Shown here: positions 1,961 through 58,672 of the stretch, piece by piece
How positions within the stretch are numbered: the first letter of the stretch is position 1
Layout of the letters: the number at the start of each line of letters is the position of its first letter
From: Stegostoma tigrinum
Lineage: Eukaryota
Length of the DNA: 64,000 bases
Assembly: GCF_030684315.1 (NCBI RefSeq)
Contig: NC_081374.1
Coordinates: 17,719,265-17,783,264 of the forward strand
Reading direction: 5' to 3'
The notes under the pieces: generated by a model
What the model saw: only the letters and a program-made list of their open reading frames with translations
Database searches by the model: none
What the model was told of the DNA's origin: nothing
Position numbers and translations under genes: made by a program

Positions 1961-2688
1961 ACTTCCCCATGAATTTCCTTGCATCCTTCACAGACATCAA
2001 CTATACATCTTGTGTGGGCACAAACACTACTTCTGGGAACAAAAACTCTCCCAATTTTGGGAGAGAATATATATTGAAGGGGAAAAGTTTTAGTGAAATG
2101 TGTTTTGTGTTGATTAGTAAGCTTGATTGGTTTGTAGCCCAGTGGAGCAACTGTGTACGTAAACAATAATGTAAAGACTTGCAGCAAAGCATGAAAGGAA
2201 CATTTCCAGGGTCAATTAAATATGGGTTAGAAGACCACACACACTGTGCTCTGGCTATAACCTCCTCCCATCCATGGTGCTTGTGTTTATGCAAAGTCAT
2301 TGCATTGTGTGTATTCCTCCTCTCAGTCATATTTCTTTTTGTGAAGATACTTGAACTTTTTTATTTCCTCTGTGCCTCAGTAAATGGGAAATTGCAACAA
2401 GCAAATAACAATGCACCAGCTGTGGGTTTTTAAAAAAGCAGGTTGGGTATTGGTGGGACAGCCACATCCTTCAAGTCACCTTCCATTAATACGCCAGATT
2501 TCAAATGGACTAACTCCAGGAAAACGTGCACTTCTGCTCTGAGGTCTCTATGATGTCAGGCTGTGGTCCTGTTCAAATGGAATGAAAACCAGAAAAACAG
2601 GCTTTGCTGGAACGTAGCAGCCAGTGTAATTTTTAAGAAGACTTAGGCTGTGGATGAGAGTTTGCTCGCTGAGCTGGAAGGTTCGTTT

Positions 2689-2728
2689 TCAGATGTTTCG
2701 TCACCATTCTAGGTAACATCATCAGTGA
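2689..2728 (-). ncRNA. Second hammerhead motif copy (inverted arm), GAAACGTC changed to GAAACATC
   Basis: Reverse complement of 2814-2853 with a single CpG-type transition in stem III. Confidence 0.6.
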
Positions 2729-2813
2729 GCCTCCGACGAAGCGCTGGTGTTATGTCCCGCTTTCTATTTTATGAATAGAAAGCGGGACAAAACACCAGCG
2801 CTTCGTCGGAGGC

Positions 2814-2853
2814 TCACTGATGATGTTACCTAGAATGGTGACGAAACGTCTGA
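2814..2853 (+). ncRNA. Minimal hammerhead ribozyme motif (PLE type)
   Basis: tca-CTGATGA-t-GTTACC(tagaat)GGTGAC-GAAA-CGTC-tga: intact core, 6-bp stem II, 3-bp stem I, loop-less palindromic stem III. Confidence 0.8.
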
Positions 2854-3367
2854 AAACGAACCTTCCAGCTCAGCGAGCAAACTCTCATCCAGAACTTCAA
2901 CCTGAGCTACAAATCTTCTCAAACTCACTTAGGCTGTGCAAGGAATAAAGAATAACATAGAGCTAATAACCACACAGACATGTGATTGTATGGACACTTT
3001 TACTTGGCGGGGTGACACAGGCAAATCTTTCTCGTTTTCCAACTACCAAGTCATTGAATCTTTCCATCAGGCAGAAAAAAAAATCTCCTTTTAAAATGGA
3101 GAAGCACACTTTTTCTGCACCCTGATTGCCTAATAATAGAGGTGGGAAGGGGAAAGAAGTGGCCCATGCTGTGGCTGTCCAGATTTAAGACTGAGTTGAG
3201 GAGAAACTTCCCAGTTTGGGAACAATCCCAAAGCATTTTCACTTTAAAGTCAGATTAACACATGACTGAGATAATGGGAACTGCAGATGCTGGAGAATTC
3301 CAAGATAATAAAATGTGAGGCTGGATGAACACAGCAGGCCAAGCAGCATCTCAGGAGCACAAAAGCT

Positions 3368-3395
3368 GACGTTTCGGGCCTAGACCCTTCATCAG
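3368..3395 (-). ncRNA. Minimal hammerhead ribozyme core in the pLTR (intact)
   Basis: Minus strand reads CTGATGA-a-GGGT(ctag)GCCC-GAAA-CGTC. Only ~2 bp of stem I are evident. Confidence 0.65.
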
Positions 3396-3514
3396 AGAGG
3401 GGGATGGGGAGAGGGAACTGGAATAAATAGGGAGAGAGGGGGAGGCGGACCGAAGATGGAGAGTAAAGAAGGTAGGTGGAGAGAGTATAGGTGGGGAGGT
3501 AGGGAGGGGATAGG

Positions 3515-4498
3515 TCAGTCCAGGGAAGACGGACAGGTCAAGGAGGTGGGATGAGCTAAGTAGGTAGATGGGGGTGCGGCTTGGGGTGGGAGGAAGGGAT
3601 GGGTGAGAGGCAGAGACAGGTTGGACTGGTTTTGGGATGCAGTGGGTGGGGGTGGGGGGTGGGGGGAAGAGCTGGGCTGGTTGTGTGGTGCAGTTGGGGG
3701 AGGGGACGAACTGGGCTGGTTTACGGATGCAGTAGGGGAAGGGGAGATTTTGAAACTGGTGAAGTCCACATTGATACCATATGGCTGCAGGGTTCCCAGG
3801 CGGAATATGAGTTGCTGTTCCTGCAACCTTCGGGTGGCATCATTGTGGCAGTGCAGGAGGCCCATGACGGACATGTCATCTAGAGAATGGGAGGGGGAGT
3901 GGAAATGGTTTGCGACTGGGAGGTGCAGTTGTTTGTTGCGAACTGAGCGGAGGTGTTCTGCAAAGCGGTCCCCAAGCCTCCGCTTGGTTTCCCCAATGTA
4001 GAGGAAGCCGCACCGGGTACAGTGGATGCAGTATACCACATTGGCAGAAGTGCAGGTGAACCTCTGCTTAATGTGGAATGTCATCTTGGGGCCTGGGATA
4101 GGGGTGAGGGAGGAGGTGTGGGGGCAAGTGTAGCATTTCCTGCGGTTGCAGGGGAAGGTGCCGGGTGTGGTGGGGTTGGAGGGCAGTGTGGAGCGAACAA
4201 GGGAGTCACGGAGAGAGTGGTCTCTCCGGAAAGCAGACAGGGGAGGGGATGGAAACATGTCTTGGGTGGTGGGGTCGGATTGTAAATGGCAGAAGTGTCG
4301 GAGGATGATGCGTTGTATCCGGAGGTTGGTAGGGTGGTGTGTGAGAACGAGGGGGATCCTCTTAGGGCGGTTGTGGCGGGGGCGGGGTGTGAGGGATATG
4401 TTGCGGGAGCAGAGGTCCTTTGCAGGTCTGGGAGAGGGAGGCTGTGAGCTGGGGCAGGCTGGATTGCAGTGCCTGGAGGTGCCGGCGCATGGCTGCAA
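3515..4498 (-). CDS. PLE ORF C-terminal part: RT-thumb/linker, Cys/Zn motif and GIY-YIG endonuclease (5' truncated, no RT core)
   Basis: NVVYCIHCTRCGFLYIGETKRRLGDRFAEH...VANHF...RRLQEQQLIFRLGTLQPYGIN matches the PLE GIY-YIG pattern (VY..YIG, R, H, E, GxN). The N-terminal ~30 aa come from the junction spacer. Confidence 0.8.
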   Translation of the reverse strand: MQPCAGTSRHCNPACPSSQPPSPRPAKDLCSRNISLTPRPRHNRPKRIPLVLTHHPTNLRIQRIILRHFCHLQSDPTTQDMFPSPPLSAFRRDHSLRDSLVRSTLPSNPTTPGTFPCNRRKCYTCPHTSSLTPIPGPKMTFHIKQRFTCTSANVVYCIHCTRCGFLYIGETKRRLGDRFAEHLRSVRNKQLHLPVANHFHSPSHSLDDMSVMGLLHCHNDATRRLQEQQLIFRLGTLQPYGINVDFTSFKISPSPTASVNQPSSSPPPTAPHNQPSSSPHPPPPPTASQNQSNLSLPLTHPFLPPQAAPPSTYLAHPTSLTCPSSLD

Positions 4499-4641
4499 GT
4501 GTCTGTTTCAGGACTTGCAGGGAGAAACGATTCTGAAGGGGCAAAGGTCCTTTGCAGGTCTGGGAGAGGGAGGCTCTGTGCTGGGGCAGGCCACCCACCC
4601 CGCCCCCGCCACAACCGCCCTAAGAGGATCCCCCTCGTTCT

Positions 4642-5405
4642 CACACCACCCTACCAACCTCCGGATACAACGCATCATCCTCCGACGCTTCCGCCATTTA
4701 CAATCCGACCCCACCACCCAAGACATTTTTCCATCCCCTCCCCTGTCTGCTTTCCGGAGAGACCACTCTCTCCGTGACTCCCTTGTTCGCTCCACACTGC
4801 CCTCCAACCCCACCACACCCGGCACCTTCCCCTGCAACCGCAGGAAATGCTACACTTGCCCCCACACCACCTCCCTCACCCCTATCCCAGGCCCCAAGAT
4901 GACATTCCACATTAAGCAGAGGTTCACCTGCACATCTGCCAATGTGGTATACTGCATCCACTGTACCCGGTGCGGCTTCCTCTACATTGGGGAAACCGAG
5001 CGGAGGCTTGGGGACGGCTTTGCAGAACACCTCCGCTCAGTTCGCAACAAACAACTGCACCTCCCAGTCGCAAACCATTTCCACTCCCCCTCCCATTCTC
5101 TAGATGACATGTCCATCATGGGCCTCCTGCACTGCCACAATGATGCCACCCGAAGGTTGCAGGAACAGCAACTCATGTTCCGCCTGGGAACCCTGCAGCC
5201 ATATGGTATCAATGTGGACTTCACCAGTTTCAAAATCTCCCCTTCCCCTACTGCATCCCTAAACCAGCCCAGTTCGTCCCCTCCCCCCACTGCACCACAC
5301 AACCAGCCCAGCTCTTCCTCTCTCTCTCTCTCTCTCTCTCCCCCCCCCCCCCCCCCTCCACCCACTGCATCCCAAAACCAGTCCAACCTGTCTCTGCCTC
5401 CCTAA
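4642..5405 (+). CDS. Inverted second copy of the PLE GIY-YIG endonuclease region (part of listed ORF 4146..5405)
   Basis: Same protein as 3515..4498 with ~9 substitutions. A 2-bp (ac) deletion near 4643 shifts the frame upstream, so the first ~165 aa of the 419-aa ORF are antisense or out-of-frame readthrough. Confidence 0.75.
5318..5356 (+). repeat. (CT)n plus poly-C tract
   Basis: Directly visible; absent from the left arm (3645-3668). Confidence 0.9.
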
Positions 5406-5629
5406 CCGGTTCTTCCTCTCACCCATCCCTTCCTCCCACCCCAAGCCGCACCCCCATCTACCTACTTAGCTCATCCCACCTCCTTGACCTGTCCGTCTTC
5501 CCTGGACTGACCTATCCCCTCCCTACCTCCCCACCTATACTCTCTCCACCTATCTTCTTTTCTCTCCATCTTCGGTCCGCCTCCCCCTCTCTCCCTATTT
5601 ATTCCAGTTCCCTCTCCCCATCCCCCTCT

Positions 5630-5657
5630 CTGATGAAGGGTCTAGGCCCAAAACGTC
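5630..5657 (+). ncRNA. Hammerhead core in the inverted pLTR, mutated GAAA>AAAA (5650)
   Basis: CTGATGA-a-GGGTCTAGGCCC-AAAA-CGTC; the conserved G12 is lost. Confidence 0.5.
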
Positions 5658-7089
5658 AGCTTTTGTGCTCCTGAGATGCTGCTTGGCCTGCTGTGTTCAT
5701 CCAGCCTCACATTTTATTATCTTAACACATGACTGGGTGTGTTAGCAGACAGTTGTTTAATCAAATGTCCAGATAACAACATTATGAAGATATGGCTTGA
5801 AATTGAGATATTAATATTGGGAGCAGACATATTGTTGCTTTCATTTGTCCTCAAATAGATTCATACTTCCTTTGAAATCAAGATAAATTGAAATTGTTGT
5901 TAATATGCCCTCATTCTAAACCTAGAGATTAGTTAGAACTTAATTTTCTTTTTTAAAAAAAACCATTTTACAGGATGTGGGTGTCACAGGCTAGACCAGC
6001 AGTTGTTGGCCATCCCATTCCAAAAAACCCTTCACAAGTGAAATTGGCTTCCTGATAACTGTTGACACATTTCCTGATGGTGAAGGTTATCAAAATATCA
6101 TTTTTTTAAAAAAAAAATTGATTATCAGAAGGTCCAGTCCATAGCTGGTCAGTTTATCAGTATCTCCTGAGTTGTGCTGGTGTTGAATTAGCTTCCATTT
6201 CTTTATTAGGCATAGTTTAATTTTAGGCTACTTTCAGTCCTGTCTCTGTGGGTATTAAGAGTTTGAAATCTACCGGTTATCTAGGCAGGATGATTAACCA
6301 TCATGTTCATGAAGCCACATGTGCACCAAACTGATTTTTAAGAGATTCTATGTACAGAATTAGATACTTTTTATAACCTTCTACAGTAAGTCTGAAAATC
6401 AGCACTGTTCTGCGATTTGTAACTACAAGTATTTTCCCACATTATTTTCCACATAAGTACTAATGGTTTAGAAAGCTCCTTTTAATTCTGAAGGATAATC
6501 CAATGATTAAACTGTCAAATTCAACCTCTAATGAAAAATTACTGTCACCTTAATTACCTTTTCTGACAAGAGACTGATGCTGGGTTATGAGCAGATCAGC
6601 AGAAAATTACACAAATGACCTCTGAGAAACTTGCAGTGTTAAGACCGGGCCCTGGGTGAAGTTCCCCCATTAACTATGGTTCCAGATGTCTACTCCATTC
6701 CTGTCTGAGGAAGGATGCACTTGCTCCTGTTTATTCACCCACCAGCTTTGCACACCAAGATGAATTTGCAAAGGATCACTTCTTCTTTTAGGGATACCTT
6801 CCTCCCAGGCCATATGAATTTGTGGTTTAAAATGAGCTAATTTAACTAGGTTTTATTACTGACTGTGAGAAGTAACAATATCACATGCACACATCAGAAC
6901 GAGTGCAAAAAATGTTAAAGGACATAAGGTTCATTGATTGTGAAGCTTATAGAATGGAAGGTTGATAAGTCATGAAGTCATTTTTCGGATTCTTGGCTTT
7001 GTTTGAAATTTTTTTGTCCAGCTTTTTTGGCTGGATTTCTGGCTCGTGGATTACTAGCATTCAGAACAAGATGATCCTTTGACCTGAGA

Positions 7090-7197
7090 AGGTAGGAACT
7101 GCAGATGCTGGAGAATCTGAGATAACCAGGTGTAGAGCTGGATGAACACAGCAGGCCAAGCAGCATCAGAGGAGCAGGAAGGCTGACGTTTCGGACT
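7090..7197 (-). mobile_element. Solo pLTR 3' end of a Neptune-type PLE
   Basis: ggaactgcagatgctggagaatctgagataac...gctggatgaacacagcaggccaagcagcatc...gctgacgtttcgg matches 3275-3377. Confidence 0.8.
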
Positions 7198-7350
7198 TTA
7201 TGGGTGTGACCTTCATTACCTATTAATGCTTGAAAACAGGCGACGTTTACCTCAGCTCATCACTGCACGCAGATCAGGGTTGAGCTGGTTTTTAACTTTG
7301 TTCTTGTGTGACTGTCCCTCTCAAACATACAAAACATGTTCCTCGTCTAG

Positions 7351-7526
7351 AGATAGTAAGGACTGCCCATGCTGGAGTCAGAGATAGCAGAGTGTGGAGC
7401 TGGACAAACACAGCAGGCCAGGCAACATCAGAAGAACAGGATGAAGAAGGGTCCCAATGTGAAACGTCAGCTTTCCTGTTCCTCTGCTGCCTGGCCTGTT
7501 GTGTTCATCCAGCTCCACACTGTTTA
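7351..7526. mobile_element. Older mini fold-back PLE pLTR insertion
   Basis: gtgtggagctggacaaacacagcaggccaggc is inverted against gcctggcctgttgtgttcatccagctccacac. Left-only tail agatagtaaggactgc... Degenerate TSD atgttcctcgtctag (7336-7350) / atgtccttcatctag (7527-7541), 12/15 identical. Confidence 0.7.
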
Positions 7527-7849
7527 ATGTCCTTCATCTAGGCTGTTACCATTTTCCCTCACCGTGTTCACAGCCTAAAGTAACTTCCAAGGTTCCCGTT
7601 TAGTTCATAGTACATTTTAAGTTCCTTTGAACTTCTTGGTACCTTTGTTGGGTATGTCTCACCTGACAGCCACTGAAATATTTTGGCTGTATCGGTTCTC
7701 TTTTTTTTTAAAAAGTAAAGCTGAAATTAAATTGTGATTTTTGTCCAAAGGTGATCTAGGGTTATGACTAGATTTGCCATGCTGAAATATAAATTCCTTT
7801 TATAATAGCTTTATTCCTTATTTAGTTTGCGGACAGCAATCAGTTAAGT

Positions 7850-7985
7850 TTGGTTTCAGTGACCCTTCCTTAGGAACTGCTCTGAGGAAGGATCTTGACC
7901 CTGTAACATTACCTCTGATTGCACTCTGCAGATGCTGCCAGACCTGCTGAGCCTTTCCAGCAATTTCCAGTATTTGCAGTTCAGT
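7850..7985 (+). mobile_element. Degenerate PLE pLTR fragment with a short central inversion
   Basis: gacccttccttag / ctgaggaaggatc inversion, then cagatgctgccagacctgctgagc..ttccagca shared with 8525-8622 and 58440-58670. Confidence 0.55.
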
Positions 7986-8524
7986 TCATTTGTAAACGGA
8001 ATAATGAATCCTTTTTAATATATGTACTTACAAAAATGGTTAATTTTCATGTTTTTCACACACTTGGAAATATTTAGACTATCAGGAGGTAATCCTTAGT
8101 TTGTTCTTCTATTAAGTGGTTATTTGGATTCCATTTGTGTATGTTTGAAAGTAATTGCCTGAACTTATTAGGGGTTTGCAAATTATTTTAAAAAATTGTT
8201 GACCACTCTTACATTCAATTCCAGACCACCTCTGGTGAACACTTGGACAGGCCAGCAAACTGTGCAGAAACACTTGCATATTTTGAAGAGAGGTGGTCCC
8301 TTTTATTACTTTAAAACTGTAACCTTTTGAGTTCATACATGAACTCAAACTACTTTGTGCCATGTATCAAGGGTCAACAGTAGTCTGTTACACTCCATGC
8401 GTGCTCACATTCTCCCACTCTGAAGTAAGCTCTGTTGGTATAACAAGAGCTTCTCATGATGCTAAGGCTCCTGAAGAAGAATAATATGATTAGTACTGGA
8501 GAGATTTTCCCAAGCATTAACATC

Positions 8525-8622
8525 GTTCTGAGAAAGGGTCACCGGACCTGAAACGTTAACTGTTTTTTCCATCACAGATGCTGCCAGACCTGCTGAGCTT
8601 TTCCAGCACATTTGTTTTTTGT
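8525..8622 (+). mobile_element. PLE pLTR fragment with a decayed hammerhead motif
   Basis: ttctgagaaagggtcaccggacctgaaacgttaac...cagatgctgccagacctgctgagcttttccagc. Confidence 0.6.
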
Positions 8623-9384
8623 TAACATTATTGTCGGATTTAGAATCAGAAATGTGACGCCAGATTAGGTTAAAATTGACAGTTTCAGGCCTTTCTAAAG
8701 CCGATCTAACAGGAAGTACTGTTTCATGCTCTGTATTTTATTGGATAGTGTGTAGTTTGTTACAAGTTTCGTCTGTATAGTTGTGTTCTGTTTAATGTTT
8801 ATCTAGGCTCTGTTGCATCAACCTGGAAGTAATTGAAGTTTATGAAAGGTATTGCATAGTTACAAATAATTTTTGGAAAAAAAGATATATTCTGATACCC
8901 CTAATGTAGTAAGGAGAAAAATGTCCTTAAATTTACAATCACCTTGTACCTTGTTATAGATGCAGCAATAAAATTTTTGCTAAGACGGTATGTTTTTTGT
9001 AAATTGTAACCATAATTAATATTGCCACATTGCACTTTGATACCAAAAGGCTATAGAAAAATTATATTGACGGTGATGCTTTTAAGTGATGTGATATGAG
9101 ATTTGGTAATTCTTGATTAATCCTGAAATTAAAAAGTGCTAGCTGTAACAGTTGGGTAATTACAAGACTGTTTTGTGTTATGCAATTCGTTGCATGACCC
9201 AACAAGCAACGTTCTATTCAAATAAATCTTCTGTTTAGCAGGAGGTAATATCCAGTTGTGCTACTGAGTGGTATTTACTATCCTGGTGTGTCTCTTGTGT
9301 GAGAAAATGTTATGTGGTGTTATATCCAGATGTACCTTTTTGGGCATTGAAAAAGCAGAGAGGAAGTTTTGAACTACAGCCCTC

Positions 9385-15127: not shown

Positions 15128-15251
15128 TTCTGAAGAAGGGTCCCAACCCGAAACGTTAACTTTCCTGCTCCTCTGATGCTGCCCGACCTGCTGTGCTCCT
15201 CCAGCTCCACGCTGTTATCTCTGACTCTGGCATCAGCAGCTCTAACTATCT
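15128..15251 (+). mobile_element. Solo PLE pLTR end with an intact hammerhead core at 15130-15157
   Basis: CTGAAGA-a-GGGT(ccca)ACCC-GAAA-CGTT, followed by pLTR sequence and tail (ctctgactctggcatcagcagctctaactatct). Confidence 0.75.
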
Positions 15252-15794
15252 TTAAATACAGTGCATTGTGTATGCAGCATTGTGTATTATTGACAGAAAT
15301 AACTTGCAAAATAAAAGGCTAACTTCAGTGAAGAAAACAGGCTTCTTGCTTACAAAGAGGTATTTTCAAAAAACATGATAGTACATTACAGGTACAGTGT
15401 AAGCTCTTCAACTACTGTACCTGTGCAGGTGACGTACTGTCGTGTGCAGTGCAGCAGAAAGTTTTTAATTATGCTCACAAACATTCCTCTATTTTTAGTA
15501 TATGTACAAACAGCAGAGCATTTCTTTTAAATTTAAGACCAGATATACTTGAGTGCTTCACCAAAAAGCTGTTTAGAGAAAAAAAAACAATGATCTTTGC
15601 TGGCAGGACACAGATGCAGTGGCACCAACACTGTCAGCACATTTAGGGGCCTTGCTAATGATGCATCTCAAAGGTCCAAGTGGCTTAAAGGTGTGAAATG
15701 CAAAAGGACATTAAAATTGGGAATGGGAGGAGGTGACATAAAAAGGCAATATTTTAAAGAGTACAAAGACTTGAAAAAACGAGATGTAAAACTA

Positions 15795-16386
15795 GAGACA
15801 ACACGGTGTGGAGCTGGATGAATAAATAGAGGGAGGAAGGGTGGAGTTGGGGAAAGGTAGGTGGGGTGATGTTAGGTGGATGCAGGCAGGGAGTGGTGGG
15901 GATTAGTCAGTGGGTGTAGCAGATACTTGAGGAAGAAGATGGACAGGTCGTGTTGATGCAAGGAGTCAGGGATGAGAGGGAGGTTGGATGTGGGATGAGG
16001 CCAGAGTGCGGAGATTTTCACCAGTTTTCCATCTTCTTCCCCACCCGTCCAGCCAACCAATTCCACTACCAACCCCTACCCTTATCCACCTATCACCACC
16101 CCACCTACCTTTCCCCATCCCCACCCATGCTCCCTACTGCCTCCTTGACCCGACACAACCTCCTCGTCTTCTCTCCCACGTATCTGCCCTACCCATCCCA
16201 CTGACTAGTCCCTACCTGCATCTGTCTGCTTTTCCCCAGCCCACCCCTCCTCCCTCTATTTATTTCTGAGCTCTCTTCCCTCTTCCCCCACCGAGGGAAG
16301 AAGGGTCCTGACCTGAAATGTCAACTTTCGTCTTCCTCTGATTCTGCCTGGCCTACCTGCGTTTCTCCAGCTCCTCACTGTGTTGC
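15795..16386. mobile_element. Degenerate fold-back Neptune-type pLTR insertion
   Basis: G-rich left half (aataaatagagggaggaaggg...tgcaggcagggag) mirrors the C-rich right half (ccctacctgcatc...ctcctccctctatttattt); ends caacacggtgtggagctgga / tccagctcctcactgtgttg. Confidence 0.65.
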
Positions 16387-18469
16387 CCGCGTTCTTAATT
16401 AGATGTAAAGCACTTTGGAATGTCCCAGGAAAGTGCCTATTTAAATGCAAATCCTGTTTAATTTGGAGGTTGGTACATTCAACCTCATATCGTACTGAAT
16501 ATGAGAGCTGTTGCAGTATGGGACGAAGCATCTTGTGCCCTGTGTCTAGACTGACCGTCTGAAAGAGCAGCTCAATGAGTGCCACTCCTTGTTTTTTTTC
16601 TGTCAGCCTTCTTTTTACGCTTTTTTAGATAACAACCCAAATTCCCTTTTTAAAGCTACAATGGATCTGGCCTCCTCCACACTTCATCAGGGCAGTTTAT
16701 TTCGGATCTTTAAAGAAAAGTTTATCCTTGTGCCACCATTGTTTATTTTTATTTTAAATTGCCGTTTCCCTTAACTCAACATCCTCTGGTTCATTCTCCT
16801 TCTAACAATGGGATCACTTTATCCCTACCTAATCTGTCCCAACCGTCCATGATTTTCAAATTTTGTCTTACCCTCATTGTAAAGAAATACATATATCAGG
16901 TAGCCCTGGCTGTTCTGATGCCACGGACTTGGCTCCGGCTGCACTCCCCAGAAGATTCATCACTTTGATCAGTATTTGGAACTGAATACTGCCTGGAGAC
17001 TCTCTCTTGTATGACCTGCCTATTTATTTTTTGACTGCGTGGTGGTTACCCACACCTTCTCCCTTTGTGTACTCTTGAACTTTGGAATGACCATCTCAAA
17101 AACCATGCTGACCTTGCACTGCAGTGATCCCAGCTGTTTGCTTGTGGTCTGAAATTTGGAGCTTGAGCAGTAGTAGCTGTTCATATTTCCTGCATGTTCA
17201 TTTAACACAGACGCAGGAAATCTGAGTTCCCACAGGGAACAGGATGTGTCCACCAGGGGCTGGAGCTGCGATGCCATTGCTCTCTGATAGATAACAAAAC
17301 TTACATTTCAAAGCAATATGGAATTTGCTTTTAAATCAAAGGGGCAGCCCTTGCTTTGCAAGAGTTAGTGCCTGTCTATGATGTGTGTGAATGTTGACTG
17401 CATTATTATTGATCTATCTGCAGCCTAAAAGTTAATGTCTATAGAGCCTGTATTTGCAGACCCTGAGAAACCATGACCTAGTGCTATTCACTGATAGTTT
17501 TTGAAAGCAAATGGATTGCTAGACATGCCTTTTCATTGGAATAATTTTCATACATCAAAATCGAACTGTGAAGTTGTACAGCATTTTTAATCAACATTAG
17601 ACCATGCTGCAAAATCAGTACTGAATACTACTGTAAGAGGACATCCGGTCTTGGTTAACAGAAGATTAACAGGCTTTATGAAACATAACTGTGTGAGGAA
17701 TGATGAGAGGGCAGCTTCTTAAACCTTACTGATTTGAGCTCTAGTTCCGTGTGTTCAGGTGTCTCATTAGTACAGCTCCATAAGCAGGTGCCCAGATACT
17801 ATTCCTAGAGAAAAGGTACAGTCAATCCTTTACTCCACTGATACTGATTAACACAAATGTCAATTAAATGGAGTTAGGATATGTTACTTGCACTGCTTAT
17901 ACATCACTTAATTGAATCAAACATTAAGGGTGCTTTTACTTCACTTCTGTTATTAAACAAAATTGAATTTCCTTTCTGTGCTGATTAGACAGTGATATAT
18001 TCAAGGGAGGATGTCGAGTCATCCTAAAAAACAGGTAGAAGTTGCAATTTGGTCACAAAATTCTACTTGCGAATAGGAATTGGTGGTAATGGCAATGGTT
18101 TGATCCGATCAAAGATGAACTCTGTTCTCAAAGATAGGATGGACATTCTAATAGAACTGTGCAGATATTTTAAGATTTAACGAGGTGTCATGCCCTTTTA
18201 TTTCAATCTTACAATGTCCCTGGGCCATTTAAGTCATAACTTTTCAAACTGGAATTTACTGTATTTATTTGTGTATATTAATTTTTTAAAAATGTTCTAA
18301 TCTTCTGTTAGTAACTGACATTTATTTTATAGAAGCTTCCACAACAAAAGTCGGAATAGTTTGAAAATCAGGACCTTTTGGCAATTTGAGGATTTGATCT
18401 TTAGATTCTAGTACTCTTTTTAAAGGCATTAATCATCAGCTTTGTGAATAATAAATAACCATGAGAGAG

Positions 18470-21419: not shown

Positions 21420-22150
21420 AAATCAAAGGAAGAGGCCATGCAGCCCATTGCTTCTGCTCTGGCTGAATAAACTAGCCCTTCCCTCCATCTGATATCCCGT
21501 TCCAATCTTCAGGTGTTGACTCATGTTCGTTCTTGCTCAACCACCAAACCAGGCAGCAAACTCTAGATGACCCACTGTCCTCAGGGTGAAAAATAGTAGG
21601 AACTGCCGATTGCTGGAGTTTGAGATAACCAGATTTAGAGCTTGATGAACACAGCAGGCCAGGTAGCATCGGAGGAGCAGACAGGCTGACGTTTTGGATC
21701 TGGACCCTTCCTCACGGGGAGGAAAAAAATGAAGGGTCCAGACCCAGTACGTCAGCTTTCCTGCTGCTCTGCTGTCTGGCCTGCTATCTTTATCTTCTGT
21801 TCCTTTTCGTCCTTCTACCCTAACTCCGTGACACCTGAAAATTGACTACTTCTTTAGGGGGAACATGGGCAACATAGAATCACATATGTTTTCCCTGTCT
21901 GCTCTACCCAAATCACCAAATATTTTGTACACCTCAATCAAGTCACCACTCCTCCACTGCACCCCCCCCCCCGCCACCCTCCGTCACTTCTGTTCTAAGG
22001 AAAACAGCTCCAATCTGTCCAATCTTTCCTCATAGCTGCAAATTTCTATTCCTGCCAATTTTCTTGTAAATCTCCTTTGTACTGTCTCTAGCGCAATTAC
22101 ACCCTTCCTGGAACGTGGTAACGAGAACTGTTGAAAGGAACTCCAGCTCG
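21420..22150 (-). mobile_element. CR1-like LINE 3' fragment interrupted by a PLE mini-hairpin
   Basis: Minus-strand remnant of the CR1 LEYCVQFWSP..RKD..ALERVQRRFT region at 22030-22150; CR1 3' UTR at 21430. Confidence 0.55.
21592..21795. mobile_element. Mini fold-back PLE pLTR insertion
   Basis: gctgacgttttggatctggacccttc is inverted against gaagggtccagacccagtacgtcagc; left-only tail atagtaggaactgccgattgctggag. Confidence 0.7.
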
Positions 22151-37289: not shown

Positions 37290-37722
37290 TGGATGTGAGT
37301 TTGCACGCTGAGCTGGAAGGTTAGTTTTCAGACAGTTCGTCACCATTCTAGAAAACATCATCAGTGAGCCTCTGATGAAGCACTGGTGTTATGTCCCGCT
37401 TTCTATTTATCGGTTTAGGTTTCCTTGGGTTGGTGATGTCATTTCCTGTTCTTTTTCTCAGGGGATGGTAGATTGATTTGGAGCCAATGTGTTTGTTGAT
37501 GGAGTTCTGGTTGGAATGCCATGCCTCTAGGAATTCTCGTGCGTGTCTCTGTTTGGCTTGTCCTAGGATGGATGTGTTGTCCCAATCAAAGTGGTGTCCT
37601 TCCTCATCTGTATGTAAGGATACGAGTGATAGTGGGTCATGTCGTTTTGTGGCTATTTGATGTTCGTGTATCCTGGTGGCTAGCTTTCTGCCAGTTTGCC
37701 CAATGTAGTGTTTGTCACAGTT
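37290..37722 (-). mobile_element. 5'-truncated Poseidon/Penelope-type PLE: GIY-YIG C-terminal half plus pLTR with a decayed hammerhead
   Basis: Minus translation CDKHYIGQTGRKLATRIHEHQIATKRHDPLSLVSLHTDEEGHHFDWDNTSILGQAKQRHAREFLEAWHSNQNSINKH. 37290-37408 matches 2651-2768. Confidence 0.85.
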
Positions 37723-38389
37723 TTAACATGAATAGTTGTGGCCCCATCACTGACTCCAGAGGATCTCCACAAAAGTCACTGCCATCCTGCAGTACCATGC
37801 TACTAGCTAGCTTTTCTCTCAATGTTTTATTCCCATCTTGAAACATCCAGACATGGTAATATCTTTTCTGTGGATCAAACAGACAAAGCTAAAATCCTAC
37901 TTTATTTGTGAAGATTGCTAGGAAGACTTCTCACTGATTAACAGCCTACTATAGTAGGACTTGTTATCGAGAGTGAATAGCAGTGCCTAATTTACACAGC
38001 TCTCCTGGCACAGTGCATAATTATAGTATTTCCTCCAAGGCATTATTCCTTTCAGGAAGGGTCACTATTCTGCTGAGATGCTTGTCTGCATGCAAAACGT
38101 GAAGCTCAGAACAGTTTATTTCTGCTTCACAAAGCTAAGCCTCAGCAGTTGCAGACATTGTTTACGTACACTCTCTCCATTCAAGGGGAATTTAAAAAGC
38201 TATTAAGGTCCATTCTGTACATGTGCAGCAATTTCTTGCTGTGCGAGGTTAAAATGTTCCTACAGTCAGCTTTAAGCATAACTGTCACGATAACGTTCTG
38301 TGGTCCACTAATGGTTCTAGTCTCACTTGCGGAAAATTAGTAAATTGACAGCGTACCCATTTGTAGGCCTAGGCCTTGACAAGGTTATT

Positions 38390-43135: not shown

Positions 43136-43717
43136 CCCTTGGGGCTGACCATGCAGCATCAGTGTGCGCAGGGCACTTACTGGCTTGCAGCATCTGAAGT
43201 GCTGCGGAGCCTGGGGTTTAAACCTGCTGCGACTGACATTAATGCTGCAAAGTCCTGGCACAGTGAGTGTGCCTGCCTCTCCTATCTCACAAATCCCATG
43301 AAGTGGGCATTGAAGAGGCCTGGCACATAGTCACTGAGCACAGTGGCTTGAGAAAGTTGAGGTGTCGATGCTTGACTGACTCCCATAATGTCACAAAATG
43401 CCAACTTTCAGGGGCCACATTTTCACATTTGTTTTTTTTTGGCAGTGATATGTTGGTGTGGGTTAGCTTATTTGGGGTGATTTATGCACATTTTAAGTTT
43501 GGACAACAGCTAAATACTGTGGATACTGGAAATGTGAATAAACATGAACAAACAATGTTGTACATACACGACATGTCTGACTGCCAATGTGAAGAACAAA
43601 ACATGAATAATATTTTGGATCTGTGACCTTTCACCAGTACCAAGTTTGAGCAGGTTCAAATGAGATTGCAAGAATATTGAAGTGTAATTTTGACATTTGT
43701 GAAATAGGCATGATATT

Positions 43718-45788
43718 GATGTAGAGGTGCTGGTGTCGGACTGGGGTGGACAAAGTCAGAGGTTATGCAACACCAGGTTATAGTCCAACAGGTTTATTTG
43801 AAATCACAAGCTTTCATAGCCCCTTTATCAGTTGAAGTGAGAGAAGAGCACACAGGCATAGAATTGATAGACCAAGAGATAAAATGATCATGCACATTGT
43901 GTGAGCAGAGTGTTGAATAATAAGTCTCTGCAGGCGATCAAAACTGTCAGATGGTGGGAGTAAAGAGCCAACAGTTGAATAACAAGCAAAGGAATCACCT
44001 GTAATCCAATAAAATGAGGCAGAGAGATAATTATAAAATGTTAAAAATAAGGATGTGTTGAAGACAAACCAAATGACTGGAATGACATGATAAGTATCAA
44101 AGTCACATGCTGAAGGTGTAATATAAGTAATTTGAAACTGTACACACTAAGGTAGAGAGGTCATAACAATTTATCAAGATGGTAGTGTCAACAGGACAAT
44201 AAGGAAGACTTTTCAGATACAGAACAGTATGCTGGGGTCACGTAGCACAATGTGAATACAAAATTACAGTTGAGGCCATCCTCATGGGTACAGAACTTGG
44301 TTATCAGTCTCTGCTTGGCGATTGTGTGTTGTTGTGTATGTGAAAGGCCACCTTGGAGGACAGTTACCTTGATATCAGAGGCTCAACGTCCTTGACTGCT
44401 GAAATGTTCCCTGACTGAGCAGGAACATTTCTGTCTGACAATTGTTGCACTGTGTCCATTCATCTGTTGTTGTAGCGTCTGCATGGTCTTGTTAGTATAC
44501 CATGCTTCAGGGCATTCTTGCCTGCAATATATGAGAGACAACATTGACCGAGTCACATGAGTATCTGCCGTGCACATGGTGGATGGTGTTCTCACGTGTG
44601 ATGGCAGTGTCTGTCGATGTACTGATTATGTCTTGCAGATTTTGCCATGTCAGCATTGTGTGGTATTCTGAGCAATGGTGTCTTGGTAGTTTGCTGCAAA
44701 AGATGGTCTGTTTAAGGTTGGAGTCTGTTTTGAAGGTGAGAAGTGGAGGGTGTAGGCATGATCTTGATGAGATGCTTATTGTCATCCATGACATGTTGAA
44801 AGCAGTGAAGAACATGACATGGTCTTGCTTCTCCAGGGCAGTAGTAGACAATGAAGGGTACTCTCAGTTGTAACCTGTATCTGTAATCTGAAGAGGACAT
44901 TGTGGGTTTTCACTGTGGCACATTGGAACTGGTTATTGATGAGTTGAGCATCGTATCCTGTTATGAGGGTGTCCACCATATTCCTCCTCATCTGAGCAGA
45001 CCCTGTGTATGCACAGGACTTGTCGGCAGGGGATGGCTTCTTTAATATGTTTAGCATGGAAGTTAGAAGTGCAGCATTGCGAGGTTATCCGTGGACTTGC
45101 AGTAGAGTGAGGCACTGAAGAGTCTGTTCTTGTTGGTCGAGAGTGATTTCTGAAGGACAGTCCATGGTAAATCTGATGCTGAGATGAAGCTTGTTGATAT
45201 CACTATGTAGTGGTTTCGGTGATTCCTTGTCATGAGTCCAATGGAAGAAAACGTTGTTGATGTATCAGGTGTGTAGTGTTGGACAGAGGTCCTGTGCAGC
45301 AAAAGTCTTTGCTCGAACTTCTGCATAAAATGTTGGTGTATTAAGGTGCAAATTTGGTGCCCCTGACTGTTCCATGTGTTTGGATGAAGAACTGGTTGTT
45401 GAAGGTGAAGACATTGTGGTCGAGGATGCAGTGGATGCGACTCTGATACCTATTGCATTATTTCCAGTAATTTCTTTTCTCTCTAACACCAGCTTATTTT
45501 GAATTTTTTGTAATTATCTCGCTGTCTCATTTAATCCGATTGCAGGTCATCCCTTTGCTTGTTATTCAGCTGTTGACTTTTTATTTAAATACCTAATATT
45601 TTTGATCACTTGCAGAGGCTTACTATTTGACATAGCACTCACACCATTTGTATGATCTTTTGATATCTCTGCCGGTAAATGCTGTGTCTGTGTGCTTCTG
45701 TCTGACCTCACCTGATGAAGGGGCTATGCTCTGAAAGCTTGTGAGTTCCAATAAACATGTAGGGCTATAACTTGGTGTTGTGTGACTC
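43718..45788 (-). mobile_element. Decayed PLE with RT and GIY-YIG remnants and an inverted pLTR
   Basis: 43761-44060 is inverted against 45484-45787. Minus remnants: TLHT*YINNVFFHWT (YIDD motif, 45253-45264), SLYCKSTDNLAMLHF, HHVHGRYSCDSVNVV, CRQECPEAWY...QQMNGH...VREHFS. Confidence 0.8.
45707..45745 (+). ncRNA. Minimal hammerhead ribozyme motif
   Basis: CTCAC-CTGATGA-a-GGGGC(tat)GCTCT-GAAA-GCTT-GTGAG: 5-bp stem I, stem II, palindromic AAGCTT stem III. Confidence 0.7.
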
Positions 45789-46551
45789 TCAAAATTGATG
45801 CCAGTTTCATATTTAATATCTGGGTTGTGCAAAAGGAGGAAACTTAAGACCAGTATCTTCATGACTATCACACTTTCATTACAAACCAATTGCTCTTGAT
45901 TGTTACAGTGGCTCCACATAAAAGCAATAAGATACAAGGCAGAAAAACAGTGGTGCCTTCATCTGCTTCTCCATTTGATGATCATTTGAGTAGTTAAACT
46001 AAAATGAGAGTGAATTTATTGGTACATTTGAGTGCATGCTTGGATCAGACCTGTGTTCATTCAGTCTCTGCGCATTAGTGAACGTAATGATTTCCACAAG
46101 ATGGTCCCGCAATATCCAGGTTTGAGTGGACCCCTGACCTGCAGAGCTATTTAAAGGACCTTTTTCCTTTTATCTGATGGACTATTTATGGTGAGTGTGG
46201 AATTTCTAGAATGGTGACAGTGACAACTGTACCAAATGACATCATCTGAATGAAAGTCTTACAATGATCCACATGCTGCTATAGTATTGGCCAGTAACAT
46301 GAGCTGCTTGGAGGCAAGGGGCCAGGATGCAGCTTATTCTATGCTAAATGTTTCAAGCTATACAAGATATGTTTGTGGTAAAAGCTCCTGTGTCCTCTGA
46401 TTTGTCATGTTAACAGGAACACTGCTAACACATGAAATCAATAGTTAGCAGTATCGTCTTCGAATATGGGTGGAAGGCATGACCAATGCATTGGAGCCAC
46501 TTAATCAGAGGAGTGGAAAATGCTTGTAATGAGTTGACACCCCCATTAAAT

Positions 46552-46730: not shown

Positions 46731-46844
46731 CCAAAGTGGGGTTATGAGAGCACCACTTTATTTTCAGAAGATAAAACTTAGATCTATTTGCTTTAGTCCA
46801 GCATTTCTGTGCACCCACCCAAAGATATTAGGCTTGATATTTCA

Positions 46845-46975
46845 GACAGCAAAAACTGCAGATGCTCGTGTCAAGACCCTTCTTCAGGACAAGAGTCCCA
46901 ACCCAAAATATCAGCTTTCCTGTTTCTCTGCTGCCTGGCCTGCTACGTTCCTCCAGCTCTACACTGTGTTACCTC
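46845..46975. mobile_element. Internally deleted PLE pLTR mini-hairpin
   Basis: aaaactgcagatgct tail and gacccttcttcag, then the opposite-orientation cagctttcctg..gctgcctggcctgct..ctccagctctacactg. Confidence 0.55.
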
Positions 46976-54600: not shown

Positions 54601-55010
54601 ATACCAGTGAGCAATTTGTTCCTTCATTGGCAGGAAAGTGCTCCATGAGTCTTTCTGTCCTTCTCGCTGCCCGCTCCGCCCTCCCCTTCACCAAATGCAC
54701 CACTAGGAGGGGCATAAACAATGGGCACATCTTTAAATGTTGGTGCCAATTTAACATTGGCTCCTGGGTGTCTCGTGATTTGACCACCTGGCATTTATTT
54801 TGCGGAAAGAGTTGTCTGCTGTGAAAAGAATTGCAAAGAACTGCCCCAGAGATGCTAATTGCCTGAATTTAAAATTTAGCATTGTTGTAAAGATGACAAC
54901 AGTGCTTCATACTGCCCATGAAAGTGAAAGTTTACCTGTGGAGCTTTAGTGCTAACATTGCTGGAAATCGAACTTTATTTCGGGTTTCCAGCTAACATAC
55001 TTTATCATTT

Positions 55011-56305
55011 GAACATAGAACAGTACAGCACAGAACAGGCCCTTCAGCCCACAATGTTGTGCTGACCATTGATCCTCATGTATGCACCCTCAAATTTCTG
55101 TGACCATATACATGTCCAGCAGTCTCTTAAATGACCCCAATGACCTTGCTTCCACAACTGCTGCTGGCAACGCATTCCATGCTCTCAACTCTCTGCGTAA
55201 AGAACCTGCCTCTGACATGCCCTCTATACTTTCCACCAACCAGCTTAAAACTATGACTCCTCGTGCTAGCCATTTCTGCCCTGGGAAATAGTCTCTGGCT
55301 TTCAACTCTATCTATGCCTCTCATTATCTTGTATACCTCAATTAGGTCCCCTCTCCTCCTCCTTTTCTCCAATGAAAAGAGACCGAGCTCAGTCAACCTC
55401 TCTTCATAAGATAAGCCCTCCAGTCCAGGCAGCATCCTGGTAAACCTCCTCTGAACCCTCTCCAAAGCATCCACATCTTTCCTATAATAGGGCGCCCAGA
55501 ACTGGACGCAGTATTCCAAGTGCGGTCTAACCAAAGTTTTATAGAGCTGCAACAAGATCTCACTACTCTTAAACTCAATGCCCCTGTTAATGAGAGCCAA
55601 GACACCATATGCTTTCTTAACAACCCTGTCCACTTGGGTAGCCATTTTAAGGGATCTATGTATCTGCACACCAAGATCCCTCTGTTCCTCCACACTGCCA
55701 AGAATCCTATCCTTAATCCTGTACTCAGCTTTCAAATTCGACCTTCCAAAATGCATCACCTCGCATTTATCCAGGTTGAACTCCATCTGCCACCTCTCAG
55801 CCCATCTCTGCATCCTGTCAATGTCCCGCTGCAGCCTACAACAGCCCTCTACACTGTCAACGACACCTCCGACTTTTGTCGTCTGCAAACTTGCTGACCC
55901 ATCCTTCAATCCCCTCATCCAAGTCATTAATAAAAATTACAAACAGTAGAGGCCCAAGGACAGACCCCTGTGGAACCCCACTCACCACTGACTTCCAGGC
56001 AGAATATTTTCCTTCTACTACCACTCGCTGTCTTCTGTTGGCCAGCCAATTCTGTATCCAAGCAGCTAAGTTCCCCTGTATCCTATTCCTCCTGACCTTC
56101 TGAATGAGCCTACCATGGGGAACCTTATCAAATGCCTTACTGAAGTCCATATACACCACATCCACAACTCGACCCTCATCAACATTTCTAGTCACATCCT
56201 CAAAAAACTCTAAGGTTTGTAAGGCATGACCTACCCCTCACAAAGCCATGTTGACTGTATTTGATCAAGCCATGCTCTTCCAGATGGTCATAAATCTTAT
56301 CCCTC
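55011..56305 (-). mobile_element. Young 5'-truncated CR1/HER1 LINE: RT domain to 3' end, frameshifted
   Basis: [47 protein letters not shown] (55857..56195) continues after a frameshift as [37 protein letters not shown] (55127..55927); gaacatagaaca tail. Confidence 0.93.
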
Positions 56306-58309
56306 CCTTTGGCCGCTCCAATTACTGTTCTATAGTGTATTCAGCGTGCTTTGCTGAAGTTTGCTTCTGTACACCTGAAGTATCTAAATGTAGGTTTACT
56401 GTTATTTAGCAGTATCTAGTGAAGCATCTTTCATAGCAGAGTTCAATGCGAGTGCTGTATTTTTAAAAATACCTGTCTGATGGAGCTGGCCGGTCTACCT
56501 TATTCAAAATATCTATTCAAAAGATTAACAGTTTGCATTTGTATGTGCCGTATCACACAGAACACTGTCTTGAAGTACTTCACAGAAGTACAGAAATGGG
56601 TTTCAAGAAGGAGATTTAAAAAGGGTAACCAGAAACTTTGTAAAATTATACTATATTTTGAAAGGAGTTTAGGAGGATAGAGAAACAGAGGTAGAAGTGC
56701 TTTTGGAGGAAATTCTATCATGTAGGGTTAAGGCTGTACAAAAGGACAAAGTTGGGTATGTGCAGAGTTCTGGGGCTGTAAGAGATGTAGGGCTGGAGGA
56801 GGATATGGAGTGAATGAGCTATGAGGCTTTTGAAGCATTTTAAGCAAGTGCTGAAAATTTGAAATTGGGAAGCCCTGTGTGGGGACACAGGGCAGGTTGT
56901 GATGGTGGAACTTTGATTTTGCTGAAGTACATTGAAATGTTGAAGTCTCGTATTGCGAACAGTATTGTTACAGAAGTGGAAGTATCTGAGCTTTATGACA
57001 GAGGATATGGACTCAGAATTTTGACTAGAAGTTGCAAATATGCCATGGAATGTTAATACTCTTGTTCAAACTGAGGTAATTGGCTGGGATTCAGCGGTTG
57101 GGAGGATGGAATAAATGGCAAGGGTATGGAGTTTGTGATTGGGGGGGGGCAAAGCTACAATTCTGTCTTCCCACGATTTGATTGATAGTTTGTGGCTCAT
57201 CTAGATGTTCTGGCTACAACTTGTAGACTTAAATGACTGTGTGATATTGTTTACATCTTGTTTTCAACTACATCTCTATCATTCTCACTTGTGATTTTCC
57301 TTTACTATTGTAAACCAAGTAGGTCCTTAAACCTAACCTAGTAAAGAAGATGATGGCAGCAAACTACTTCCACCACAAGCTGGTATCAGTTGGTCTTGTG
57401 CCTCACCCCAGCCGTAAACAGGCACCTTTCAAATAAAGAGTATTTCCACCACCTCTCAACTCCTGTTTGTTTTTTTTCATGTTTTAGTTTTCTTCCCTAA
57501 ATTGCCTTGGGCTATTTTCTTCATTAATGGCTTGGTGTATGTACAAAGATAAGTTGGTGGTCGGGTTGATTTAAAAAACAAAGTAGGCTTTCGCCTTGTC
57601 TGGAGCCCTACGTTTTTTTCTCCAACTGGGGAAGGAGCGAGGGAAGAAACTGCTGAAGGGAAAAATTGCCTTCTGTCATTGGCATCCATCAAAATAATTG
57701 TCTGGTTTCTCAAAATAACAAGTGCACTTCATCCCTTGCCTGGTTCTCATTGCTTTCTGACTTCTCCATCACTGACTGTCATCCTTAATCTCCCTCTCTA
57801 GTCCAACTCCTTATCTTCATTCATTCGTGATTCTGCATTGAGGGTTGCCTTTTCTTTTAGTGCTTTGCTGTCACTGAGTGTATTACTTGCTGGATAATGA
57901 TGAAAACTTTTTAAAAAAATGCTTACCACCTTTTACCAGTGGGCGAGTGTTGGTATCTTCTCTTTCCCATCCAATCAGCTGCAGCGTGGTGTTACAACCG
58001 TGCTGTTCAGTGACTACAGTATAAGGTACAGATAGGAGAACTGATGTGAGCAGCAATGGGATGTGGCGCAGGCTGATTTTGAGTCATTTAATAAGATAAC
58101 AGCCCCTAGAAATTACATGTGCATTGTTGGAATCCTAAGGCCAAGATTTTGTGACTGTAATGGTGAAACTGTGAACACTTACCATTCGTCCTTTGTAAAA
58201 CAGACAGCATCCTCTGAAGTCTGCGTGTGTGGTTCACTTGTCAAGTCCTTGCAGGTAGAAATTACATGATGTAACGCAGAACAAAGAATTAAAGAATTGT
58301 GCTTGCTGG

Positions 58310-58672
58310 AAACAAAAAAACAAAAAATGTTGGAGAAACTCATCAGATCTATCAGCACCTGTGGAGACAAATCAGAGTTAATGTTTCGGGTCCAGTGACC
58401 CTTCAGAACGTAATCAGATGAACAAGTTGATAATTAACAGGAACAAAAGCAGAAGTTGCTGGAAAAGTTGAGCAGGCCTGGCAGCATCTGTAAAGGAAAA
58501 TAAATCAGTTAATATTTTGGGTCTAGTGACCCTTCCTCAGAACCAAACCAGAAACGTTAACGCTGATATTTTTTGTCCCCAACAGATGCTGCTAGATCGG
58601 CTGAGCTTTTCCAGTAACTTCTGTTTTTTTTTCCCTGATTTACAGCAATTGCAGTTGTTTTAGTTTTTATTT
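58310..58672. mobile_element. Solo pLTR (58310-58408) next to a mini fold-back pLTR element (58440-58672)
   Basis: cagaagttgctggaaaagttgagcaggcctggcagcatctg is inverted against cagatgctgctagatcggctgagcttttccagtaacttctg; right-only tail ctgatttacagcaattgcagttg... Confidence 0.7.

What the first reader, a model, noticed from the sequence alone, without database searches (positions are those of the whole stretch)
2641..58672. Shared rule across unrelated PLE families: the inverted arm starts ~33-40 nt inside the 3' end, with ~2-nt microhomology to the target
Seen: a tail on one side only in 2892-2926 (35 nt), 3269-3301 (33 nt), ~43718-43760 (~40 nt), ~7351-7385 and ~58635-58672. In the two youngest copies the TSD overlaps the tail-less arm by 2 nt (tg 2651-2652; tt 5722-5723). 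The solo copy at 37290 ends at the same tail-less tggatg boundary. Known: Penelope pLTRs have a short 3' tail extension. Inference: a fixed internal second priming site, conserved across sequence-unrelated families. This would be a PLE-specific twin-priming pathway whose register may be set by RNA structure downstream of the hammerhead.
Basis: partly seen in the sequence, partly recalled or inferred. Interest (0 to 1): 0.72.

Follow-up and report, generated by a model that had tools for sequence, protein, structure and literature searches.

The report
Shark Penelope insertions with one-sided tail
These are ordinary shark Penelope-like retrotransposon insertions made of two mirror-image arms, one ending 32-42 bases short of the other, a published pattern that likely comes from the enzyme starting its copy at either of two internal RNA sites; the proposed 2-base match to the target is not established.

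Summary
The anatomy is real. Two young insertions (2651-2926, Poseidon-type; 3269-5723, Neptune-type) have perfect 12- and 14-nt target duplications, 35- and 33-nt tails on one arm only, and a 2-nt overlap at the tail-less arm. All 6 scoreable inverted insertions of 9 are one-tailed. Whole-genome contigs show two end clusters 32-35 nt apart in both families; the inner cluster is at least 5 nt wide. This is published: a tail often at one end only (Craig 2021; Arkhipova 2013), and two internal reverse-transcription starts that bound it, with both target strands extended and no primer homology (Frangieh 2024). The microhomology rule is not established: a 2-nt overlap arises by chance at 16-22% of junctions, tailed arms overlap as much, and one well-duplicated tail-less arm has none. 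The five examples are three lineages. Both arms copy the same RNA stretch, so this is not L1-type twin priming. One modest extension: in all three lineages a predicted 7-8-bp body-tail helix encloses the inner start site. The scan noted this insertion pattern before in two other shark genomes.

The parts
2641..2652 (+). Left TSD of element 1 (12 nt; last 2 nt shared with the tail-less arm)
   Evidence: 12/12 identity with 2927-2938
2651..2768 (-). Element 1 tail-less inverted arm (family A, Poseidon-type PLE 3' end)
2774..2891 (+). Element 1 tailed arm, body
2817..2850 (+). Minimal hammerhead-like motif of family A (CTGATGA, helix II, GAAAC-GTC); mirror copy in the other arm
   Evidence: read from the sequence; Rfam gives no hit; motif type as described in PMC4209133
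2867..2908 (+). Predicted 7-bp body-tail helix (2867-2873 with 2902-2908) enclosing the inner end at 2891-2895
   Evidence: 36 of 1000 shuffles reach 7 bp
2892..2926 (+). Tail of element 1 (35 nt; a few nt shorter than the common genome-wide end)
2927..2938 (+). Right TSD of element 1
3255..3268 (+). Left TSD of element 2 (14 nt; last base probably also the element's last base)
3269..3301 (-). Tail of element 2 (33 nt; family B, Neptune-type)
3285..3351 (-). Predicted 8-bp body-tail helix (3351-3344 with 3292-3285) enclosing the inner end at 3302
   Evidence: (20 of 1000 shuffles)
3302..4408 (-). Element 2 tailed arm: pLTR with hammerhead-like motif (3395-3368) and GIY-YIG endonuclease 3' part with CX4CxxC linker
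4406..4591 (.). Non-PLE filler between the arms of element 2 with a 54-nt direct repeat
4595..5723 (+). Element 2 tail-less arm, 5'-truncated within about 16-19 nt of the other arm
5722..5735 (+). Right TSD of element 2 (first 2 nt shared with the arm)
7084..7195 (-). Solo tailed family B copy
7350..7526 (.). Inverted family B insertion, tail 7350-7381 on the left arm; degenerate TSD 7336-7350 / 7527-7541 (12 of 15)
8524..8623 (+). Solo tail-less family C copy with a borderline 7-nt TSD overlapping by 2 nt
15128..15252 (+). Solo tailed family B copy
15794..16400 (.).
21590..21800 (.). Inverted family B insertion, left arm tailed, right arm too decayed to score
32020..32140 (-). Solo tailed family D copy; predicted 8-bp body-tail helix 32093-32086 with 32044-32037
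37289..37728 (-). Solo tail-less family A copy with Poseidon-type GIY-YIG endonuclease fragment; no TSD found
43717..45790 (.). Inverted family D insertion (decayed, Neptune-related): tailed left arm about 1.7 kb, tail-less right arm about 350 nt
46846..46975 (.). Inverted family B insertion: left arm tailed with an internal deletion, right arm tail-less
58284..58418 (-). Solo tailed family C copy
58442..58672 (.). Inverted family C insertion, tail 58634-58672 on the right arm; degenerate TSD 58427-58441 / 58671-58685 (12 of 15)

Best explanation
These are head-to-head double insertions of Penelope-like retrotransposons of two clades, in which one arm ends at an outer site and the other at an inner site 32-42 nt upstream, likely because the element's enzyme cuts both target strands 12-15 nt apart and reverse-transcribes from each cut, starting once at the outer and once at the inner internal RNA site. 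SHOWN here: the arms, one-sided tails, TSDs and two genome-wide end clusters. SHOWN elsewhere (anole Poseidon, in vitro): both strands are cut and extended, reverse transcription starts at two internal sites whose interval is the tail, without homology to the cut DNA. INFERRED: both primings belong to one event (dual priming by a predicted dimer, on two RNAs from one source locus or on one RNA read twice with strand displacement); the two cDNAs are then joined at their truncated 5' ends, sometimes with filler; the two sites are likely placed by a body-tail helix whose loop holds the inner site and which ends 16-18 nt before the outer site. The 1-2-nt overlaps with the target are likely mostly chance plus AT-rich target choice, with perhaps a weak terminal pairing at both ends, not a rule of the inner site.
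For: TSDs and tails. 6 of 6 scoreable inverted insertions (of 9 seen) one-tailed; P 0.006-0.016 if ends were chosen independently. Two end clusters per family in whole-genome contigs of the same organism: A 2891-2895 and 2923+, B 3268-3271 and 3300-3303 (15 of 588 joints shown). A solo tail-less copy with a 7-nt TSD (8524-8623) suggests the inner site can start an insertion by itself (borderline score). PMC11167929: both strands cleaved and extended, two RT starts equal the tail, predicted dimer, AC-rich stem-loop. Both arms of element 1 carry a base at 2885 that 96% of the summed genome-wide contig depth lacks, so they share one source. Body-tail helix of 7, 8 and 8 bp in the best-preserved copy of A, B, D (36, 20, 24 of 1000 shuffles; Fisher P 0.001; second-choice copies P 0.014), with the last 6 nt before each end predicted mostly unpaired (0.72-0.99); 93% of cells paired across 5 B copies, one pair with three both-side changes.
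Against: The in vitro paper saw no difference in start-site use between the two target strands, which does not by itself give strict one-tailed pairs. Near-equal 5' truncation of long arms in element 2 (about 1.1 kb each, within 16-19 nt) and element 1 fits fold-back copying as well; family D arms are very unequal. Whole-fold energies are not better than shuffles (z -1.17 to +0.77), 3 of 9 copies show only a 5-bp helix (563-729 of 1000 shuffles), and covariation is not significant (39 of 500 shuffles). Part of the family B inner cluster may be alignment breaks: the loose-end consensus there ends in tail-like letters, and 4,553 bisulfite reads clipped at 3302 continue into converted tail. Overlaps at both ends are slightly above chance (P 0.049 and 0.023), so some pairing is not excluded.
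Confidence: 0.68

Rival explanations
1. Fold-back (self-priming): one cDNA is made from the outer site, snaps back at its truncated end, is copied back toward its start, stops about 35 nt short where the initiation complex sits, and is joined to the second target strand by end-joining with 0-3 nt of microhomology.
For: Palindromic junctions were read as self-priming in PMC3846280. Arms of elements 1 and 2 stop at nearly the same 5' point and share a rare base. It gives strict one-tailed pairs without further assumptions (6 of 6).
Against: The inner site is a real RT start in vitro with no inverted partner. Solo tail-less copies exist (8623 with a borderline TSD; 37289 without TSD). Element 2 has 186 nt of foreign filler between the arms and family D arms differ by about 1.4 kb.
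Confidence: 0.17
2. The tail is left or removed by endonuclease cutting during resolution of the transposition intermediate, not by where reverse transcription starts.
For: Proposed in PMC8557442; the tail is needed for endonuclease recognition in D. virilis Penelope as cited in PMC11167929.
Against: The later in vitro map puts RT starts on both tail boundaries. The inner end is a spread of at least 5 nt in a predicted RNA loop.
Confidence: 0.08
3. One reading: L1-like twin priming in which the second target strand anneals to a fixed inner RNA site by about 2 nt of microhomology.
For: 2-nt overlaps in the two youngest copies (P 0.024-0.047), also 2 nt at 8623 and 3 nt at 58442; all 7 tail-less ends together P 0.049.
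Against: Tailed ends overlap as much (mean 1.8 against 1.4 nt); the tail-less arm at 15794 has none; three best TSDs give P 0.18; in vitro starts lack homology; L1 twin priming gives non-overlapping pieces whereas here both arms copy the same stretch.
Confidence: 0.07

Closest known systems
Poseidon element of Anolis carolinensis, PAc (Frangieh et al. 2024, PMC11167929)
   Same: Two internal reverse-transcription starts whose interval is the 30-40-nt tail; genomic ends fall on those sites; both target strands extended; hammerhead upstream; first start in an AC-rich stem-loop spread over about 8 nt. Family A here is Poseidon-type with an AC-rich loop at its inner end; the RNA letters in that paper's Fig. 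S1 show a 7-bp inverted pair around an AC-rich segment (read by eye).
   Different: The text read does not treat inverted pairs or say that the two sites are used one each per insertion, tests one Poseidon element only, and reports no primer homology. Here the same two-site geometry appears in Neptune-type families with U-rich loops. Its Fig. S2 (image) and GenBank file could not be read.
Canonical EN+ PLE insertion structure: inverted 5'-truncated copy plus 30-40-bp tail often at one end only (Craig et al. 2021, PMC8557442; Arkhipova et al. 2013, PMC3846280)
   Same: Exactly this anatomy, described for Penelope/Poseidon, Neptune, Nematis and Naiad clades, with 8-10-bp TSDs and a 31-bp optional tail in rotifer.
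   Different: They ascribe the tail to endonuclease resolution and the inversion to self-priming; no body-tail helix or microhomology count at the tail-less end in the passages read.
L1 twin priming and proposed dual priming (Meyer et al. 2010, PMC2837659)
   Same: Both target strands prime cDNA; inverted halves lie inside one TSD.
   Different: Twin priming copies non-overlapping parts of one RNA and leaves an internal deletion, the second primer annealing by microhomology at variable sites; here both arms repeat the same 3' stretch, which matches dual priming instead.

Membership tests
EN+ Penelope-like element | C-terminal GIY-YIG endonuclease with two cysteines between GIY and YIG (CCHH motif) | tested here: met
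   Family B: PF01541 E 6e-4, below the curated cut-off, motif visible in the translation. Family A: 82% to a homologue that carries the motif; the window fragment begins inside the motif.
EN+ Penelope-like element | PLE-type reverse transcriptase in the same ORF | tested here: inconclusive
   Window copies of A and B are truncated below the RT; their 82-93% identical homologues carry RT motifs. Family D holds a decayed RT fragment matching Neptune-type proteins (E 3e-7 to 2e-5). No tree built.
EN+ Penelope-like element | Minimal hammerhead motif in the terminal repeat | tested here: met
   CTGATGA / helix II / GAAAC core read at 2817-2850 and 3395-3368; Rfam 0 hits; cleavage not testable.
EN+ Penelope-like element | Inverted truncated copy, optional 30-40-nt tail, TSD | tested here: met
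Neptune clade (families B, C, D) | CX2-5CxxC motif in the RT-EN linker | tested here: met
   CX4CxxC upstream of the GIY-YIG core in both arms of element 2; feature as given in PMC8557442. Nematis also has it and was not excluded; C and D assigned by similarity only.
Penelope/Poseidon clade (family A) | No CX2-5CxxC linker motif | tested here: met
   Absent in homologues P0006, P0009, P0015; the window copy itself lacks this region; no phylogeny built.
L1-type twin priming | Two inverted pieces that do not overlap in the RNA (internal deletion) | tested here: not met
   Arms overlap fully: 118 of 118 nt in element 1, about 1.1 kb in element 2.
L1-type twin priming | Significant microhomology at the internally primed junction | tested here: inconclusive
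   P 0.049 for 7 ends, 0.18 for the 3 best TSDs; equal or higher at tailed ends.
L1-type twin priming | Both primers act on one RNA molecule | not testable with these tools
   Shared rare base and near-equal truncation are compatible with one RNA, two sibling RNAs or fold-back.

The most novel reading that the evidence does not exclude
Across Poseidon and Neptune clades with unrelated RNA ends, one conserved RNA shape (a 7-9-bp body-tail helix with the inner start in its loop and the outer start 16-18 nt past it) seats the two active sites of a dimeric PLE enzyme on ONE RNA, so that each strand of the staggered cut is assigned one start site; the same RNA is copied twice, giving obligatory one-tailed palindromes with matched truncation points.
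Probability: 0.25. Interest if true: 0.55.

Novelty: already known. Interest (0 to 1): 0.2.

Why it matters
As found, it extends a published mechanism (two internal starts bounding the tail) to more families and adds little. If the novel case held, it would explain why the tail sits at one end only and how PLE palindromes form, steps that the in vitro paper leaves open, and would give a clade-spanning RNA element to mutate in an existing assay. These shark families are abundant enough (about 149,000 contigs laid on 630 bases in one run) for a decisive genome-wide count.

Tried and rejected
No whole genome is held, so paired ends could not be counted genome-wide. Motif scans for more copies gave one chance bacterial match in metagenome contigs and none in prokaryote or viral contigs. 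Rfam found no family. No RNA holder listed. Bisulfite read depth (run X15) was rejected as a tail/body measure because conversion breaks alignments; summed contig depth (tail about 1.15 M against 2.1-4.2 M in the body for family A) is no copy number and was used only as a rough sign. A fixed distance from the hammerhead was rejected (41 to about 76 nt). A shared sequence repeat at the two ends as a general rule was rejected: present in B (TATCT-like, up to 6 nt) and weakly in C, not in register in A, absent in D. Dropped before the asymmetry count: 15794-16400 (possible tail remnant), 21590-21800 (decayed arm), 7850-7990 (very short left arm). TSDs with scores 6-7 are borderline (29 and 10 of 400 random pairs reach 6 and 7); 7 of 15 candidates had no credible TSD. 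Overlap values for old copies were read by eye. Literature searches found no paper on obligatory pairing of the two sites, on PLE twin priming with microhomology, or on a cross-clade body-tail helix; the library lacks most subscription papers, and Arkhipova 2006, Evgen'ev and Arkhipova 2005 and Pyatkov 2004 were not read.
Full report
WHAT IS THERE. The window is carpet-shark-like DNA: the closest named homologues of its PLE proteins come from Stegostoma, Rhincodon, Hemiscyllium and Chiloscyllium. Self-comparison and profile searches show four PLE end families. A (2651-2926, 37289-37728) is Poseidon-type: homologues lack the linker zinc motif. B (3269-5723, 7084, 7350, 15128, 15794, 21590, 46846) is Neptune-type, with CX4CxxC ahead of the GIY-YIG core. 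C (8524, 58284, 58442, 7880) is a relative of B (70% over 44 nt; alignment). D (32020, 43717-45790) is decayed and matches Neptune-type proteins. A and B carry a minimal hammerhead core read from the sequence, of the type described in PMC4209133 (passages); Rfam has no hit.

TAILS AND TSDs. Element 1: arms 2651-2768 and 2774-2891, tail 2892-2926 (35 nt), perfect 12-nt TSD, 2-nt overlap at the tail-less arm. Element 2: arms 3302-4389/4408 and 4595-5723, tail 3269-3301 (33 nt), perfect 14-nt TSD, 2-nt overlap. Tails at 7350-7381, 43717-43758 and 58634-58672 are on one arm only. Of 9 inverted insertions seen, 6 could be scored and all 6 are one-tailed (elements 1, 2, 7350, 43717, 46846, 58442); independent choice of ends would give this with P 0.006-0.016. 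Three were dropped (15794, 21590, 7850). Solo copies: 4 tailed (7084, 15128, 32020, 58284), 2 tail-less (8623, 37289).

GENOME-WIDE ENDS. Four runs were laid on 2790-3419: two contig sets of the same organism, one bisulfite read set, one contig set of a related organism. In the 15 of 588 joints shown, family A ends fall at 2891 (30 contigs in X1), 2892 (12), 2893 (13), 2894 (16), 2895 (8) and at 2923 (99; the alignment breaks there because the window copy is slightly shorter than the common end, as 2,050 clipped reads show). Family B ends fall at 3268-3271 and 3300-3303 (3320 is probably subfamily divergence). Loose ends at 3303 number 984, 974 and 137 contigs in X1, X2 and X13, with low agreement (0.39-0.43) as expected of mixed flanks, but their consensus ends in tail-like letters, so some are alignment breaks; 1,400 more loose ends were not shown.

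MICROHOMOLOGY. Overlap of a TSD with an arm is the sum of two chance extensions; 2 nt or more occurs at 16-22% of junctions, and at two of two with P 0.024-0.047. Over all ends with any TSD candidate, tail-less ends gave 2,2,0,2,3,0,1 (P 0.049) and tailed ends 0,1,1,2,5 (P 0.023) (old copies read by eye; 4 of the 7 tail-less cases rest on borderline TSDs). With the three TSDs clearly above the null (elements 1, 2 and 15794) the tail-less values are 2, 2, 0 (P 0.18). The tailed end of element 2 probably overlaps by 1 nt, since 3268 is the commonest outer end genome-wide. So a weak terminal match at both ends is possible; a rule peculiar to the inner site is not shown.

RNA SHAPE. Folding from the hammerhead to the tail end puts, in the best-preserved copy of each lineage, a perfect helix between body and tail: 7 bp (A), 8 bp (B), 8 bp (D), reached by 36, 20 and 24 of 1000 dinucleotide shuffles (Fisher P 0.001; with second-choice B and D copies 0.014). 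Its 3' strand starts 10-18 nt after the inner end and stops 16-18 nt before the outer end; both ends are predicted mostly unpaired. Against: total fold energies are no better than shuffles, 3 of 9 copies keep only 5 bp, and across 5 B copies the pairing is 93% but covariation is not significant (39 of 500 shuffles); two D copies keep 16 predicted pairs. The RNA letters in Fig. S1 of the anole paper show, by eye, a 7-bp inverted pair around an AC-rich segment and a second AC-rich run 11-17 nt after it; I could not map the published start sites onto these letters because the figures are not held. Distance from the hammerhead is not fixed (41 to about 76 nt).

WHAT IS KNOWN. PMC11167929 (main text and start of Methods read; passages; supplement PDFs give figure lettering only) shows for an anole Poseidon: both target strands cut and extended; reverse transcription starting at two internal sites not homologous to the cut DNA; the 30-40-bp tail equal to the interval; genomic copy ends on those sites; an AC-rich stem-loop; a predicted dimer; hammerhead cleavage dispensable; no strand difference in start-site use. 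PMC8557442 (passages) states that the tail is often at one end only across clades and ascribes it to endonuclease resolution. PMC3846280 (passages and Discussion) describes a 31-bp optional tail on one inverted pLTR and reads the palindromes as self-priming. PMC2837659 (passages) defines L1 twin priming (inverted pieces with an internal deletion) and dual priming (two RNAs). Searches found nothing on obligatory pairing or a cross-clade helix; older subscription papers were not read and may cover these. Two earlier notes of this scan report the same insertion pattern in other sharks.

MECHANISM. Most likely (0.68): dual target-primed reverse transcription from both strands of a staggered cut, one from each internal start, the cDNAs joined at their truncated 5' ends. 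Both arms of element 1 share a base that 96% of genome-wide depth lacks, and the arms of element 2 stop within 16-19 nt of each other after about 1.1 kb, so the two templates are one RNA or sibling RNAs; fold-back copying (0.17) explains these points too. Endonuclease trimming (0.08) and microhomology-driven L1-type twin priming (0.07) fit worse.

VERDICT. Real, correctly located, already known in its core; the microhomology rule is unproven; the strict pairing and the shared helix are small, testable extensions. Interest 0.2.

Noticed in passing
window 4406-4591: A 186-nt GC-rich non-PLE filler with a 54-nt direct repeat (4406-4459, 4538-4591) sits between the two arms of element 2, probably captured by a template jump; source not identified.
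   Followed up: no
window 3268-3303 (laid contigs): Contigs join an outer family B end to an inner one on opposite strands (3268 to 3300: 26 contigs; 3270 to 3303: 41 contigs in X1). These may be convergent neighbours or true tail-to-tail fusions; the letters between were not given.
   Followed up: no
window 3269-3310, 7350-7390, 15215-15252: In family B the inner and outer ends share a short motif (TATCT-like, up to 6 nt in register), and family C has T-rich look-alikes at both ends, as if the tail arose by duplicating the element's end; not seen in register in A or D.
   Followed up: partly
window 2641-5735: The two youngest insertions, of different PLE clades, lie only about 330 nt apart.
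   Followed up: no
window 58284-58672: A tailed family C copy lies about 25 nt from an inverted family C insertion, a possible nested or serial insertion.
   Followed up: partly
window 46552-46733: Three near-perfect tandem copies of a 59-nt unit.
   Followed up: no
window 55127-56237, 28604-29136, 38538-39687: Fragments of a LINE-type reverse transcriptase ORF (CR1-like by recalled motifs; weak RVT_1 hit).
   Followed up: no
proteins P0007, P0008, P0013, P0024, P0025: Family A endonuclease sequence appears inside predicted isoforms of shark host genes (CUE domain protein 2, MAP3K7, EYA3-like, WBP2-like): exonised PLE pieces or gene-model errors.
   Followed up: no
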